From Eledone cirrhosa (lineage: Eukaryota), in contig CAXHJY010000040.1 of the NCBI GenBank assembly GCA_964016885.1, forward strand, positions 1 through 64,000: a DNA stretch of 64,000 bases. Reading direction: 5' to 3'. The notes beneath the pieces are model-generated. The model was not told where the DNA came from. It ran no database searches and saw only the letters and a list, made by a program, of their open reading frames with translations. Within the stretch, counting starts at the first letter, position 1; every line of letters begins with the position of its first letter. Positions 31,815 to 46,790 of the stretch are shown here, piece after piece. The position numbers and the translations under genes were made by a program.

Positions 31815-31892
31815 TATTTTGTCTGAAGAGGACATGATTTGCTTTATGTTAAATATAAAACTTTACATCTTCGAAATATATATAATGAAATA
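31815..31892 (+). ncRNA. Minimal type I hammerhead ribozyme motif (family D, diverged)
   Basis: UAUUUUGU-CUGAAGA(31823-31829)-imperfect stem II GGACAUG/CAUCUUC-GAAA(31873)-UAUAUAUA-AUGAAAUA. Confidence 0.65.
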
Positions 31893-32047
31893 AATAGAGA
31901 TGTTATAAAGTATATATCTTTTATTACTATTTATTACGCTTGAGGGTGGCCGACCGGGGTAGAAGCTGCTAAATGTTCGGTCGCCCTCGTGTCTCTGATT
32001 TTCAGCCCCTTGGATTTTGTCTATTATATTCCTTTGTTATATTTCGA

Positions 32048-32111
32048 ATACCTGATGATGTCACCGGATTCATACTGAACCCGGTCATTGAAATGACCAT
32101 AGTATAATAAA
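32048..32111 (+). ncRNA. Minimal type I hammerhead ribozyme motif followed by AATAAA
   Basis: AUAC-CUGAUGA(32052)-stem II ACCGG.UUCA/UGAA.CCGGU-GAAA(32090)-UGACCAUA-GUAU; predicted AUA site ending at 32101. Confidence 0.65.
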
Positions 32112-32439
32112 TCTTTTAAGGAATTACACCAGTCCAACCTCCTGTTATTTTATAATATATATATACATGTGTGTGTGTGTGTGTGTGTGTGTGTGTGTGT
32201 GTGTGTGTGTGTGTGTGTGTGTGTGTGTGTGTGTGTGTGTGTGTGTGTGTGTGTGTGGCGGGGCGAGGTGGACTAATCGTCAGGTCGAACCAAGGTAAAG
32301 GAAATAATGCTCCCATTCGTTTTTCTATTACAGAAATTGTCTACCGGACGAGGTTCTTGGCAGAACCAACATAAAACAAAGTATTTTGCTAAAAAGGAAA
32401 AAAGAAAAAAAAAAAAAAAAAAAAGAACCCGCCGGCAGC

Positions 32440-32500
32440 TCTAGGAATCGAACTCACAGGTTTATGATCGTGAGCGCAATACCGTAACCACTAAGCCATC
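32440..32500 (-). mobile_element. tRNA-like SINE head
   Basis: Reverse complement TGGCTTAGTGGTTA..GAGTTCGATTCC. Confidence 0.7.
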
Positions 32501-32956
32501 ATAAGTTATCTGTGATATTAAAATGAAATGTTTAGACCAGAGAGAAATTTTAACACCAACATTTCATAAGGACACACACACATGCACACACACATGCACA
32601 CACACACAATTCCTACGTGCTAGAAATAGCAACCCAGCTTAAACCCCTTAAATTATATACACACCTACAATTTATTTTCATCGTGAAAGAAGGCTATCAT
32701 TAACTAATACAACATCTTTAGCCTGAAGAATGAAAAAAAAAAAAAAAGACCAACCCTTCCTTAAATAGAGAGTGATTACAAATGGAATAAGGTTAACCTC
32801 GAGCTAAACAACAACAATAACAGCAGCAACAATCAACACAGAGGTCTGTGAAGACCTGTGATCCAGCAGTTAGGCCGTAAGTTCAAATCCTTGACTAGGC
32901 GACGGCACATAGCGGCTGTGTCCGCGCGTGTGTGTGTGTGGGGGGGGGGGGGGTCC

Positions 32957-33127
32957 CGGGTTCTATCGGGGGCAACCACAGTAAGTAAGGTACGCAATAC
33001 ATAGTAGAGTATATACAATGTTTAATATAGAAATGTCTTCTACAGCACTAGAAACGTTTTCATTCGAAAGAAATCACCAGGAAATCAACAGTTCTACTCC
33101 TGTAGAAGCTATTTCTATATTAAACAT
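32957..33127 (-). mobile_element. Family B fold-back element with decayed HHR
   Basis: Tail AACCACAGTAAGTAAGGTAC; arms ATGTTTAATATAGAAAT..CTTCTACAG / CTGTAGAAG..ATTTCTATATTAAACAT; minus-strand core CTGGTGA..GAAA. Confidence 0.75.
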
Positions 33128-33335
33128 ATATATATATATTTTAATGCGATGAAATACTAATGATGGTTGGAAAATCACTGACGAAGGACTATTTTTATCA
33201 TATGTAACCCATGTGCAACCACGCAGTATTCTTCTTTCTTCTCATGTTTTTTATATATATCCGGGAGCTGCCAACAGAAATGGTCGCATTCTTTAAGGGT
33301 ATGTCAATATTTATTTATAAAACTGCTCTATATTA

Positions 33336-33400
33336 TATTTTATCTGATGAAAGCACACCATAATTTAACTTGGTGTCCTTGAAATATGTATAATGAAATA
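33336..33400 (+). ncRNA. Minimal type I hammerhead ribozyme (family D), intact core
   Basis: Stem I UAUUUUAU/AUGAAAUA (8 bp); CUGAUGA 33344-33350; stem II AAGcACACCA/UGGUGUcCUU (9 of 10 pairs); GAAA 33381; stem III AUAUGUAU; predicted AUA site ending at 33392. Confidence 0.8.
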
Positions 33401-42878: not shown

Positions 42879-43359
42879 TTACTAGTTGTAACCCAACAAT
42901 TTAAATATAACTTTCCATATATATATATATATATATATATATATATATATATATACAGAGAGGGATAGGGGGAGAAGGGGAGAGGGAAAGAGACAGAGAG
43001 GAGAGAAAGAAAAAGATTTTCAACTCGCACCTATGCGGGTTTAGCTAGGCCTCCTGTGTGGTGGCATCTGATAGGAGTCTCCTAGGGTTCTTCAAAGAAA
43101 GGAAAGCCCCTCATTCTTATCACATATTTATGTATGTTTAGATGGGCCCCCTACGAAGTTCTATCTCACAAGTTTCTTGATTGTTTTGCTGAAGTTCCGC
43201 ACCTTAACTACTGGGCTACGCGACACACACACACACACACACACACACACACACACACACATATATATATATATATATAATAAAATATAGAGAAAAATAC
43301 TGCAGGTAGCACATGGATAACATGTAATAAAATGAGTCCCTCATCAGTATATATAACTA

Positions 43360-43560
43360 TAGGAACGAGTAGGACCCCAACGGCAGAGCTCAAGCCGTTT
43401 CGACGGCTAATTCTGGACTAAATAGGTCCTACTCGTTCCTATTACCCACTCTACTACCCTAAGTATTGAGTACTTTGGTGCGTTATGGTCCATCTGGTTC
43501 CTTACCACATTTCCTTCGTTATATATATATATATATATATATAACGAAGGAAATGTGGTT
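43360..43560 (+). mobile_element. Family C element plus an inverted terminal stub across (TA)n
   Basis: Hairpin and tail 43360-43520; AACGAAGGAAATGTGGT at 43543 is the reverse complement of the tail end. Confidence 0.8.
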
Positions 43561-43607
43561 ATATATATATATATATATATATATATATATATAAAGATAA
43601 GTTTATC

Positions 43608-43696
43608 CCGGGTTCAATCGGGGGTAACCACTGTAAGTAAAGTACTCAATACAAAGCAGAGTGTAAATATTTAATATAGAAAAGGTTTCTACAGGA
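43608..43696 (-). mobile_element. Family B tail fragment between (TA)n tracts
   Basis: CCGGGTTCAATCGGGGGTAACCACTGTAAGTAAAGTACTCAATAC..TTCTACAGGA. Confidence 0.75.
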
Positions 43697-44390
43697 GAGT
43701 ATATATATATATATATATATATATATATATACACACGTAAACACACACACACACACATATATATATGTGCGTGTGTGTACTCACACAATACATATAGTTT
43801 GCCTGCACGTACATCATCTTTTGATATATGTGTGTGTATTCATATGGAAAGATGATGTTATACATATATACACATGCTTCTCTCACTCTCCTTCCCCCTC
43901 CCCCAGTATAAATATGCACACACACACACACACACACACACACACACACAAGAAAGGTTTGGTGTGTCAATAAACGTACACAGTCTTTGTTTAAAATGCC
44001 TCTTAACACCCTTTCAATACGTTAGTCTGGGTGTTTTCATATAAAAGCAGCCATATAAATGAGCTTTTGTGTACATACATACATGCAGCATGTGTGTGTG
44101 TATATACTCATGCTTGTGTATACATTCATACTGTATGTATGAGTGTACATATGCATGCATTTACATGTGTGTACGGCGTACATAAATGTGTATACGCTTG
44201 TGTGTGTGTGTATGTACATGCATGCGTGTACGTGAGTGAGTGAGATTGCGTTTGTTTGTCAGACGTTATAGAATGGTACACAGAATCTATAGAAAAGGTG
44301 AGTTTATATACACATACACACACACATATACAGTTTAAACATATATATACACTGTGTTTATACATATATATATATACACTGAGCATTATC

Positions 44391-44887
44391 GGTGAATTGG
44401 CAGTATCGGTAGAGGGTTGGACGCCATGCTTTCTAGCATAGTTACGTCCCTTTACAGTCTGAGTTCAAATCCCGCCGAGGTTAACTTTGCCTTTCATCCT
44501 TACGGGGTCGATGAAATAAAGTACCAGTAATGTACTGGGTAATTGCTGGCCTTGTGCCTAAAGTAGAAACAATTATATATATATATATATACACCGAGCA
44601 GGTTAACTTTGCCTTTCATCCTTATGGGGTCGATAAAATAAAGTACCAGTAATGTACTGGGTTATTGCTGGCCTTGTGCCCAAAGTAGAAACAATTATAT
44701 ATATATTTTGACAGTATCGGTAGAGAGTCGGACGCCATGCTTTGCAGCACAGTTACGTCCCTTTACGGATTGCGTTCAAATCCCGCCGAGGTTAACTTTG
44801 CCTTTCATCCTTACGGGGTCGATAAAATAAAGTACCAGTAATACACTGGGATAATTGTTGGCCTTGTGCCCAAAGTAGAAACAATTA
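44391..44887 (+). mobile_element. Three head-to-tail SINE family G copies (middle one 5'-truncated)
   Basis: Copies at about 44391-44577, 44600-44698 and 44707-44887, each ending AAAGTAGAAACAATTA(TA)n. Confidence 0.9.
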
Positions 44888-46435
44888 TATATATATATAT
44901 ATATATATATATATATATATATATATATATACATATAATGTAATGGATTATCAACAAGGAGTGGACATTAAGTGGACATTAAGACGAAAAGAATTAATTT
45001 ATTTTAAACCTTCCATATCCGATCAGAATTTTCTCACCTCTTTCTATTCAAACCGGCCGCTCATACTGATGTTAAGGTATTGTTCTCAAAACAAATGTTA
45101 TCAAACTCTCATAGATTCGATAAAAATATAATAGTAAATATAGACTAATATAAATGTTAAAGGGTTAAGGGTTAAGGGTTAAGCTCATAAGAAGGAGGAA
45201 AATGATGAGAGGGAAGTCTGGCAGTTCGAGGGAAGAAGGCTTACAACCTTAGAAAGATTTCCTTATTGGTAGAACAACAACCGCATCTAGAAGTAGGCCT
45301 CCTACGAAGTTATATCTTATAAGTTTCTTGGATGTTTTAATGATAGAGGCCTCTATCATGTTTGTTATTGTTATAGCTCATAACGATGCAGATTTAGCTG
45401 GCCTCCTACAAGGTTAAACCTCGTAGGTTTCTTGAGTGCTTTAACACTAGGGACCCCAATCTTAAACACACACGCTAAAACTTTTTGAAAAGATTAAAAT
45501 GACATATTATAGCTAACAATTGGGGCAAAATGCTTTCATAAAAACAACAACCATATGTGTGTGTGTGTGTGTGTGTATTCATGTGTGCGTATATATATAT
45601 ATGAACATGTGTGTGTGTGTGTGTGTGTGTGTGTGTAAACGTACTTATGTTTTAATATGTATACAAGCATAAAAGTACACGTGTATGTGTGTGAACGTGT
45701 ACGTGATAGAAATGCTCTAAACAGATAAAAATGTGTGGGTGTCTGCATGAGCATGGATGTGTATATATATGTGTGTGTAGATGTGTGTGTGACGTGTGTG
45801 GAAGTAGGAAATTAGGGAGAAAGATAATGATCTAAGAAACGAAGAACATTCGCGAACACACACACACACATATACATACACATCTATACACACACGAATA
45901 TTTATACACACACACACACACATATATATATATATATATACATCTATACAAACACATATATATAGACATACACATCTATATACAAATATCTATAGTCACA
46001 CACACACACACACACACACACACACACACACACAAATATATCTCTTCCTACGTGCACACACACAACTACTTATGCACACACACACACATATATATACAAA
46101 TATATCTCTCCCTACACACACATATCTATACATATATCTACACACACACACAGATATATCTCTCCCTACACACACACATATCTATACACGCACACATCTA
46201 TGCATACAGATACATCTATACACACACAGATATATCTACACATACACACACAAATATATATATATATATGTCTCATATAAAATAATACAACTGGCTATCC
46301 GCAAAATACGTATAGTTAGCACCCCAAACGTATAATTGAGATTATACTAAGGTATATCCTAATGTTTGTTGAGTGAGACAGAAGCCGGTCGGAGTATTGC
46401 TTAAAGCTTTCTTTGTTAATGTATTAAATATATAT

Positions 46436-46790
46436 CCGATATATTAACAAATGGAAACTATATTTATAAAACCACATTTATTTCATTATACATATTTCAA
46501 GGACACCAAGTTAAATTATGGTGTGCTTTCATCAGATAAAATATAATATAGAGCATTTTTATATAAAACCATATTTATTTCATTATACATATTTCAAAGA
46601 CACCAAGTTAAATTATGGTGTGCTTTCATCAGATAAAATATAATATAGAGCAGTTTTATATAAAACCATATTTATTTCATTATACATATTTCAAAGACAC
46701 CAAGTTAAATTATGGTGTGCTTTCATCAGATAAAATATAATATAGAGCAGTTTTATAAATAAATATTGACACACCCTTAAAGAATTGTAT
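46436..46790 (-). ncRNA. Tandem array of three 97-bp units, each with a minimal type I hammerhead ribozyme (family D)
   Basis: TCATCAG (reverse complement CUGAUGA) at 46529, 46626 and 46723; units are near-identical to the reverse complement of 33317-33415. Confidence 0.85.

What the first reader, a model, noticed from the sequence alone, without database searches (positions are those of the whole stretch)
31815..46737. Family D hammerheads show compensatory stem II changes across dispersed copies
Seen: the copies at 31815 (+), 33336 (+), 42733 (-) and 46479-46737 (-) keep CUGANGA (N = A, U or G), GAAA, the AUAURUAU stem III and stem I. Stem II differs in sequence and length yet still pairs: AAG/CUU, AGG/CCU and GGA/UUC at the base, and ACACCA/UGGUGU versus CAUAUU/AAUAUG distally. 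Inference: the RNA fold was under selection in the master elements of several subfamilies, which argues against chance motif matches in AT-rich DNA.
Basis: partly seen in the sequence, partly recalled or inferred. Interest (0 to 1): 0.8.

Follow-up and report, generated by a model that had tools for sequence, protein, structure and literature searches.

The report
Hydra-type Penelope retrotransposon hammerhead ribozymes
The six motifs are leftover ends of a very abundant Penelope-like jumping gene that carries a hammerhead RNA motif of a known kind; its fold and catalytic letters were kept as the family diversified, so it likely cuts the element's RNA in pairs, although cutting was not tested.

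Summary
Six type I hammerhead motifs sit at the stated places (0 in 100 shuffles). They are truncated ends (pLTRs) of a Hydra-clade Penelope-like retrotransposon, with 26,101 exact motif matches in the 3.0-Gb genome. Full elements carry a sense hammerhead about 200 nt before a 745-aa RT + GIY-YIG ORF and another about 4 kb later. The selection claim holds. Across 196 copies, lineage-shared changes never touch the 11 core positions (0 shared, 34 private), and in proximal stem II they keep pairing 14 of 17 times against 14 of 36 for private changes (p=0.004). All 9 stem II pairs show two-sided changes; stem I shows none. The palindromic AUAURUAU predicts dimer cleavage after AUA; this is untested, and inserted copies show no cut-site footprint. 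Hammerheads with covariation in Penelope pLTRs are published, and this scan noted similar ones before, in this genome too. New details are an AUA triplet, a fixed C·C mismatch, and near-identical pLTR pairs within elements. New member of a known kind.

The parts
31752..31936 (+). Truncated pLTR fragment of the old, decayed subfamily D3 (235 exact matches to its 3' signature in the genome)
   Evidence: blastn to locus L200 at 79% over 192 nt; copy count; its tail resembles the D1 tail and is followed by TA-rich sequence in most of 28 loci. No ORF partner shown.
31815..31892 (+). Type I hammerhead motif, D3: stem I 31815-31822 with 31885-31892, core 31823-31829, 43-nt stem II, GAAA 31873, octamer 31876-31883, predicted cut 31884/31885
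33258..33442 (+). 5'-truncated pLTR fragment of subfamily D2, without tail, between TA runs
   Evidence: 97% to L044 and 94% to L164, whose inverted pair holds a Hydra-type ORF
33336..33400 (+). Type I hammerhead motif, D2: core 33344-33350, GAAA 33381, predicted cut 33392/33393
42692..42916 (-). Short insertion of subfamily D1 in a TA array: inverted tail (42916-42852), fold-back (42851-42825), then sense pLTR end (42824-42692) without tail
   Evidence: 96% to L042, a D1 copy with an open 576-aa RT-EN frame
42733..42798 (-). Type I hammerhead motif, D1: core 42790-42784, GAAA 42752, predicted cut 42741/42740
46437..46816 (-). D2 insertion: inverted tail tip (46816-46785), then sense pLTR end with a local 97-bp triplication
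   Evidence: only 5 short tandem junctions in the genome, 2 of them here
46673..46737 (-). Hammerhead motif, tandem copy 1 (stem II base AAG/UUU), predicted cut 46681/46680
46576..46640 (-). Hammerhead motif, tandem copy 2 (stem II base AAG/UUU), predicted cut 46584/46583
46479..46543 (-). Hammerhead motif, tandem copy 3 (stem II base AAG/CUU), predicted cut 46487/46486

Best explanation
The motifs are type I hammerheads in the pLTR of a Hydra-clade Penelope-like retrotransposon, left here as short truncated insertions; their core and stem II were conserved through subfamily divergence, and they likely self-cleave after AUA as dimers formed through the palindromic AUAURUAU. Shown: the anatomy, the link to the RT + GIY-YIG ORF (subfamilies D1 and D2), insertion into TA repeats, and the lineage-level constraint. 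Inferred: a transcript of a full element holds two hammerheads about 4 kb apart; these would pair through an 8-bp helix III and swap stem I strands, cutting about 190 nt before the start codon and again in the 3' pLTR to release a unit-length RNA. Reverse transcription would start downstream of the hammerhead at one of two sites (tail end or internal end), as in the anole element, so every insertion copies the motif. The window copies are dead by-products; the compensatory changes were made in the master lineages, not at these loci.
For: 26,101 exact matches, control 0. 11 of 11 inverted pairs spaced 2.4-3.7 kb among the first 100 listed matches enclose the same ORF. 14 of 22 ORF-anchored loci have sense hammerheads on both sides of a complete ORF, period 3,489-4,297 nt. 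The ORF has DKT, CxCx5C, GIY-YIG-type VYN..YVG, CxxC and CxH and no CCHH, aligns over 516 columns to a canonical PLE ORF (E=7e-4), and its model (pLDDT 84.6) hits TERT first in PDB. 145 of 160 scored ends run into TA. Core 0 shared against 34 private changes; proximal stem II shared changes keep pairing in 14 of 17 against 14 of 36. Core-independent subset 0 against 21. The middle of the palindrome is a purine in 26,101 matches and a pyrimidine in 107, scattered over subfamilies. The unconstrained fold of two window tandem units forms the inter-copy helix III; the constrained dimer beats two monomers by 9.5 kcal/mol. AUA is a cleavable NUH triplet (PMC8879150, passages).
Against: No cleavage was measured and no run on record as RNA was found. 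Copies do not start preferentially at the predicted cut (4 of 30 junctions against 7 of 30 at a control site; 0 of 10 copies flagged as lacking an intact motif among 160 ends). G17, which should block cleavage, is present in both arms of 3 inverted pairs on at least two backgrounds, so one round of copying does not need an active motif, as reported in vitro (PMC11167929). RNAalifold prefers an inactive register in which the stem I 5' strand pairs with GAAAUAUR; that register also explains the purine restriction. For 31823 two inactive monomers (-41.2) beat the active dimer (-34.2 kcal/mol). A·C at stem II pair 1 in 34 of 196 copies; G10.1-C11.1 in only 15 of 196. Rfam and Pfam give no match. 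The profile-profile probability was low (27%). No ORF partner was shown for D3.
Confidence: 0.85

Rival explanations
1. The fold is kept as a binding or packaging signal for the element's protein, or as a promoter or translation element, and no longer cleaves.
For: No cut-site footprint. G17 copies pass through transposition. Catalytic mutants do not impair insertion in vitro for the anole element (PMC11167929). The fixed C·C mismatch (187 of 196) looks like a recognition feature.
Against: The invariant positions are exactly the catalytic ones, while N7 varies freely (7 shared changes in one column). H17 has no shared change. The palindrome is kept (186 of 196).
Confidence: 0.1
2. The copies are a non-LTR retrozyme family, propagating as small tandem circles, with the 97-bp array as its monomer.
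For: The 97-bp head-to-tail triple in the window folds into a double hammerhead. Animal retrozymes are proposed to derive from pLTRs (bioRxiv 10.64898/2026.07.22.740005, part 1 of 5).
Against: Only 5 short tandem junctions exist in the genome, 2 in this array, and the other 3 have different junctions. The array's junction lies at a repeated TTTATA motif. Other copies are variably truncated ends of the 4-kb element.
Confidence: 0.03
3. The apparent covariation comes from shared ancestry and transition bias in an AT-rich repeat or DNA hairpin, with no selection on RNA.
For: Nearly all stem II changes are transitions. The number of pairs with two-sided change was reached by 34 of 500 shuffles. 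The tree rests on about 150 nt.
Against: Private changes, which carry the same mutational bias, keep pairing in only 14 of 36 cases against 14 of 17 for shared changes. The core has 0 shared changes. One-sided intermediates are G·U on the sense strand at positions 2, 3, 5 and 7, with A·C rare there.
Confidence: 0.02

Closest known systems
Minimal type I hammerheads in pLTRs of metazoan Penelope-like elements (Cervera and De la Peña 2014, PMC4209133; read parts 1-2 of 4)
   Same: [quoted passage not shown]
   Different: Family D lacks the extra nucleotide between 9 and 10.1 in the register that covaries, has A-U rather than G-C at 10.1-11.1 in most copies (134 against 15 of 196), has a fixed internal C·C mismatch, a long stem I, and an 8-nt AU palindrome.
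Hydra clade of C-terminal EN+ PLEs and their hammerheads (Craig et al. 2021, PMC8557442; passages, section 11, supplement part 2 of 59), e.g. Hydra-1_Obim, Penelope-13_HM
   Same: DKT, RW-basic motif, CxCx5C linker, no CCHH, CxxC and CxH motifs, (TA)n target, hammerhead in the pLTR, inverted 5'-truncated copy, tail on one end only.
   Different: Unit length 3.5-4.3 kb against mostly under 3 kb, because of a 1.5-kb spacer after the stop codon. All 26 Hydra-clade rows of their File S2 have an AC..GU helix III (GUH triplet); family D has AU..AU (AUA triplet). The tail is about 88 nt against 30-40.
Poseidon element PAc of Anolis carolinensis (Frangieh et al. 2024, PMC11167929; read parts 1-2 of 4)
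   Same: Hammerhead upstream of two alternative 3' ends that define a tail; no footprint of the cut in copies or reads.
   Different: Different clade. In PAc the hammerhead overlaps the start codon and the tail lies in the ORF; here both lie in the 5' untranslated part, with the cut about 190 nt before the ATG.
Non-LTR retrozymes (Li et al. 2026, bioRxiv 10.64898/2026.07.22.740005; read part 1 of 5)
   Same: Type I hammerhead in head-to-tail repeats, as in the 97-bp triple.
   Different: The array is a one-off duplication; family D does not propagate as short tandems.

Membership tests
Type I hammerhead ribozyme | CUGANGA, GAAA and UH core joined by three stems, open at stem I | tested here: met
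   6 of 6 window copies; 74 of 90 flank-anchored copies have an intact core
Type I hammerhead ribozyme | Stem pairing supported by compensatory change | tested here: met
   Stem II 9 of 9 pairs two-sided; stem I only one-sided, 0 of 8 two-sided; shared against private contrast p=0.004
Type I hammerhead ribozyme | Match to an Rfam hammerhead model | tested here: not met
   No hammerhead family at E up to 10 on 46400-46800; none among the 150 listed rows of 613 for the whole window
Type I hammerhead ribozyme | Site-specific self-cleavage | not testable with these tools
   Needs an in vitro assay or raw RNA reads
Minimal PLE hammerhead (Cervera and De la Peña 2014) | Short palindromic helix III / loop 3 | tested here: met
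   AUAUAUAU 99 and AUAUGUAU 87 of 196; pyrimidine at the variable place in 107 against 26,101 matches
Minimal PLE hammerhead (Cervera and De la Peña 2014) | Located in both flanking repeats of a PLE ORF | tested here: met
   14 of 22 ORF-anchored loci
Minimal PLE hammerhead (Cervera and De la Peña 2014) | G10.1-C11.1 pair with an extra nucleotide between 9 and 10.1 | tested here: not met
   First pair A-U 134, A·C 34, G-C 15, G·U 8 of 196; positions 2 and 3 covary in the unshifted register. The A·C subfamily could use the shifted register.
Hydra-clade PLE | Single ORF with telomerase-like RT and C-terminal GIY-YIG | tested here: met
   745-aa open frame in L178; colinear with a Pfam-confirmed RT + GIY-YIG ORF; TERT is the top fold match
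Hydra-clade PLE | DKT in place of DKG, RWK motif, CxCx5C linker, no CCHH, CxxC and CxH near the conserved E and N | tested here: met
   Read from translations; RWK appears as RWR; motif list from PMC8557442 section 11
Hydra-clade PLE | Insertion into (TA)n | tested here: met
   145 of 160 scored ends
Hydra-clade PLE | Generally shorter than 3 kb | tested here: not met
   Period 3,489-4,297 nt in 14 elements; a descriptive rather than a diagnostic trait
Hydra-clade PLE | Phylogenetic placement with reference Hydra RTs | not tested
   Reference proteins were not in hand; placement rests on motifs
Non-LTR retrozyme | Dispersed tandem arrays of one short monomer | tested here: not met
   5 short tandem junctions in the genome, no shared junction outside this array

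The most novel reading that the evidence does not exclude
The two hammerheads of a full element cut as a dimer, the 4-kb unit is ligated into a circle at AUA|AUG, and reverse transcription runs more than once round it. This would explain why the two pLTRs of one insertion are near-identical (0-4 differences in about 172 nt, against a median of 8-18 to other elements), why the 5' partial copy ends anywhere from 101 to 1,559 nt upstream, and perhaps why A-to-G changes shared by both arms pile up at the base just 3' of the cut on about ten subfamily backgrounds. The genome would then record hammerhead-driven circular templates of an autonomous animal retrotransposon.
Probability: 0.2. Interest if true: 0.7.

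Novelty: new member of a known kind. Interest (0 to 1): 0.33.

Why it matters
What hammerheads do for Penelope-like elements is open: Craig et al. 2021 allow that they may simply parasitize the elements, and Frangieh et al. 2024 found cleavage dispensable for insertion in vitro. Here the catalytic core takes no lineage-shared change while neighbouring positions do, so the motif matters for long-term propagation even though single copying rounds tolerate a dead site. With over 26,000 copies, several subfamilies and open ORFs, this family is a good test bed. The motif class, its place in pLTRs and its covariation are already published, so the finding itself is not a surprise.

Tried and rejected
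DNA search of the own genome with a window copy returned nothing because common words are skipped; uninformative. Rfam gave only microsatellite-driven miRNA hits and weak snoRNA hits. Pfam missed the family D ORF and the PDB sequence search was blank; only profile and fold comparison showed the RT. A search with the N-terminus of a distant homologue returned other Hydra-type families, not family D. Sequencing runs: no RNA holder listed; laying contigs of two runs of unknown kind gave nothing on expression or ends. Circle against strand transfer: differences within pLTR pairs are equal upstream and downstream of the cut (21/2,260 against 15/1,282, p=0.49); too few to decide. An ORF partner for D3: the ORF pieces in L200 are separated from the motif by another repeat, and 1 of 28 tail-anchored loci had an ORF piece, beyond the element's end; not shown. 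A propagating 97-nt retrozyme: rejected. Lünse et al. 2017 on dimer-cleaving PLE hammerheads is not held; it may already describe AUA or C·C variants.
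Full report
1. The observation. The window is microsatellite-rich animal DNA from a 3.0-Gb assembly. Six motifs read stem I, CUGANGA, stem II, GAAA, UAURUAU, A, stem I': cores at 31823+, 33344+, 42790-, 46729-, 46632- and 46535-. A strict type I descriptor finds these six and none in 100 block-shuffled windows. Two details are wrong. The first two tandem copies have AAG/UUU, not AAG/CUU. The distal helices compared are four positions out of register; in register there is one compensatory change and one broken pair. Rfam has no hammerhead match on the tandem stretch.

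2. What carries the motif. An exact pattern matches 26,101 places in the genome, control 0. Many matches come as diverging pairs. All 11 pairs spaced 2.4-3.7 kb among the first 100 listed matches enclose pieces of one ORF, 77-100% identical to P0001. Searching with its N-terminal part led to complete elements: 14 of 22 loci examined have a sense hammerhead about 200 nt before the start codon and another 3,489-4,297 nt later. L178 has an open 745-aa frame. Pfam misses it, but it aligns over 516 columns with a Pfam-confirmed RT + GIY-YIG ORF (E=7e-4, probability 27%), and its model (pLDDT 84.6) has TERT as the best PDB match. It shows DKT, RWR, CxCx5C, CxxC and CxH and lacks CCHH, the Hydra-clade signature of Craig et al. 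2021. Of 42 homologues, the only named one is from Octopus bimaculoides at 40% identity, too distant to name the host. Ends run into TA in 145 of 160 scored copies. An 88-nt tail lies on exactly one arm in 60 of 65 inverted pairs. The window holds no ORF of the element; its copies are truncated ends. 42790 belongs to D1 and 33344/46535 to D2, each with an ORF-bearing relative (L042; L164 at 72% identity). 31823 belongs to an older subfamily D3 (235 matches) with a similar tail but no proven ORF.

3. Is the fold under selection? I extracted 201 distinct copies from the window and loci L001-L210 and dropped 5 (1 mis-anchored, 4 with arm indels), leaving 196; the 200 before the last step fell into 120 insertion clusters. 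Extraction allowed at most 4 anchor mismatches, and one bulged base was skipped in 6 arms. Stem II pairs by position: 1, A-U 134, A·C 34, G-C 15, G·U 8; 2, G-C 105, A-U 66, G·U 17; 3, G-C 166, A-U 24; 4, C·C 187; 5, A-U 166, G-C 17, G·U 11; 6, U-A 138, C-G 51; 7, A-U 162, G-C 20, G·U 12; 8, unpaired in 73; 9, C-G 164, U-A 9; 10, A-U 165, G-C 7. On a FastTree tree, changes were split into shared (branch holding two or more clusters) and private. The 11 core positions have 0 shared and 34 private changes; N7 has 7 and 5, proximal stem II 25 and 42, upstream 49 and 91, downstream 22 and 37 (all p about 1e-5 or less against the core). Shared changes in stem II positions 1-3 and 5-7 keep pairing in 14 of 17 cases, private ones in 14 of 36 (p=0.004). 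Five shared changes swap both partners on one branch; others go through G·U. Because some loci were found by the core pattern, I repeated the core test on 118 copies found by flanks or by the ORF: core 0/21, loop II 11/13 (p=3e-4), stem II 8/11 (p=1e-3), upstream 12/30 (p=0.006). That subset recovered 90 of the 100 listed flank matches, 74 with an intact core. On a plain MAFFT alignment of 23 hand-picked rows, all 9 stem II pairs change on both sides; covariation score 0.353 against 0.223 shuffled (0 of 500) and at most 0.144 when slid, but the count of such pairs was reached by 34 of 500 shuffles, and stem I has none. The tool warns that relatedness inflates these controls, so the shared/private contrast is the stronger evidence. 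The tree rests on about 150 nt and parsimony ties, so event counts are approximate.

4. How it likely works. The helix III octamer is self-complementary in 186 of 196 copies, and its middle position is a pyrimidine in only 107 matches against 26,101. As a monomer it gives two pairs; between two copies, eight. The unconstrained fold of two window tandem units forms that inter-copy helix with swapped stem I strands, and the constrained dimer is 9.5 kcal/mol below two monomers. AUA is a cleavable triplet (PMC8879150, passages). I infer dimer cleavage in transcripts spanning both pLTRs, as proposed in PMC4209133. Against: an inactive register competes; copies do not begin at the cut; G17 appears in both arms of 3 inverted pairs. 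So cleavage is not needed for one copying round, in line with PMC11167929, yet no core change became shared. The 97-bp triple is a local duplication: 5 short tandem junctions exist genome-wide, 2 here.

5. Leads beyond the finding. Within 14 full elements the two pLTRs differ by 0-4 in about 172 nt, against a median of 8-18 to other elements; the within pair is closest in 11 of 14, and the 5' partial copy extends 101-1,559 nt. This suggests one template segment copied twice, by a circle or by strand transfer; cannot separate them, and young parents or gene conversion are not excluded. Variants at the base 3' of the cut number 341 (76 G among the first 100 listed, 20 both-arm pairs), against 138 at a control A (46 G) and 299 at A17 (38 G); letter counts are by eye from the listings. 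The 20 pairs fall on about ten subfamily backgrounds, six on one. A tolerated U·G wobble is the plain explanation; RNA editing or a junction footprint is possible. One control position is not enough.

6. Comparison with what is known. Cervera and De la Peña 2014 (parts 1-2 of 4 read) describe minimal palindromic hammerheads in PLE flanking repeats, in thousands of copies, with families full of compensatory changes. Craig et al. 2021 (passages, section 11, supplement part 2 of 59) list hammerheads in Hydra elements, including one from Octopus bimaculoides. Family D differs from all 26 Hydra-clade rows of their File S2 in having AU..AU rather than AC..GU in helix III, and it has a fixed C·C mismatch and mostly A-U at 10.1-11.1. 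Seven paper searches showed no description of this family, but Lünse et al. 2017 (title seen only in a reference list) could not be read, and the supplements of PMC4209133 were not examined; either may cover such variants. Also seen: Li et al. 2026 (part 1 of 5), PMC6765202 and PMC6155905 (passages). Earlier notes of this scan report the same kind of element in this and other genomes.

7. Verdict. Real, correctly interpreted, and of a known kind: a new, very abundant Hydra-clade PLE family with a slightly unusual hammerhead and a clean quantitative signal of selection. Interest 0.33.

Noticed in passing
window 37107+, 62569+, 56944-: Other CUGAUGA..GAAAC motifs with a short stem II in a different repeat family; they fail my strict type I descriptor.
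   Followed up: no
window 33178+, 55207+, 43347-, 32052+: Further CUGAYGA motifs of other repeats; three share the downstream AGGAC/GGGAC start. Topology not worked out.
   Followed up: no
L051-L080: Other Hydra-type families with DKT and open frames of about 780-810 aa are present in many copies in this genome.
   Followed up: partly
L216-L230, L142, L163: The two pLTRs of one insertion are near-identical and share rare variants, which suggests double copying of one template segment.
   Followed up: partly
L324-L343: A-to-G at the base just 3' of the predicted cut, present in both arms of 20 inverted pairs on about ten subfamily backgrounds.
   Followed up: partly
196 extracted copies: C3 of the core has 13 private changes, 9 of them C-to-T, against 0-5 at other core positions.
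   Followed up: no
window 33258; L025, L038, L045, L050: Five copies begin at the same point about 85 nt upstream of the core, at a short TAT overlap with the TA target; either microhomology or a preferred 5' end.
   Followed up: no
window 42825-42880 (-): A perfect fold-back palindrome joins the inverted tail to the sense copy, a miniature of the inverted structure seen in long copies.
   Followed up: partly
L034, L133, L152, L201: A further subfamily (stem II starting GGACGUACUG) supplies the two-sided changes at positions 5, 9 and 10 and keeps the C·C mismatch.
   Followed up: partly
L043:3-1712: A canonical DKG-type Penelope ORF (RVT_1 + GIY-YIG) lies near a family D copy but is a separate element.
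   Followed up: partly
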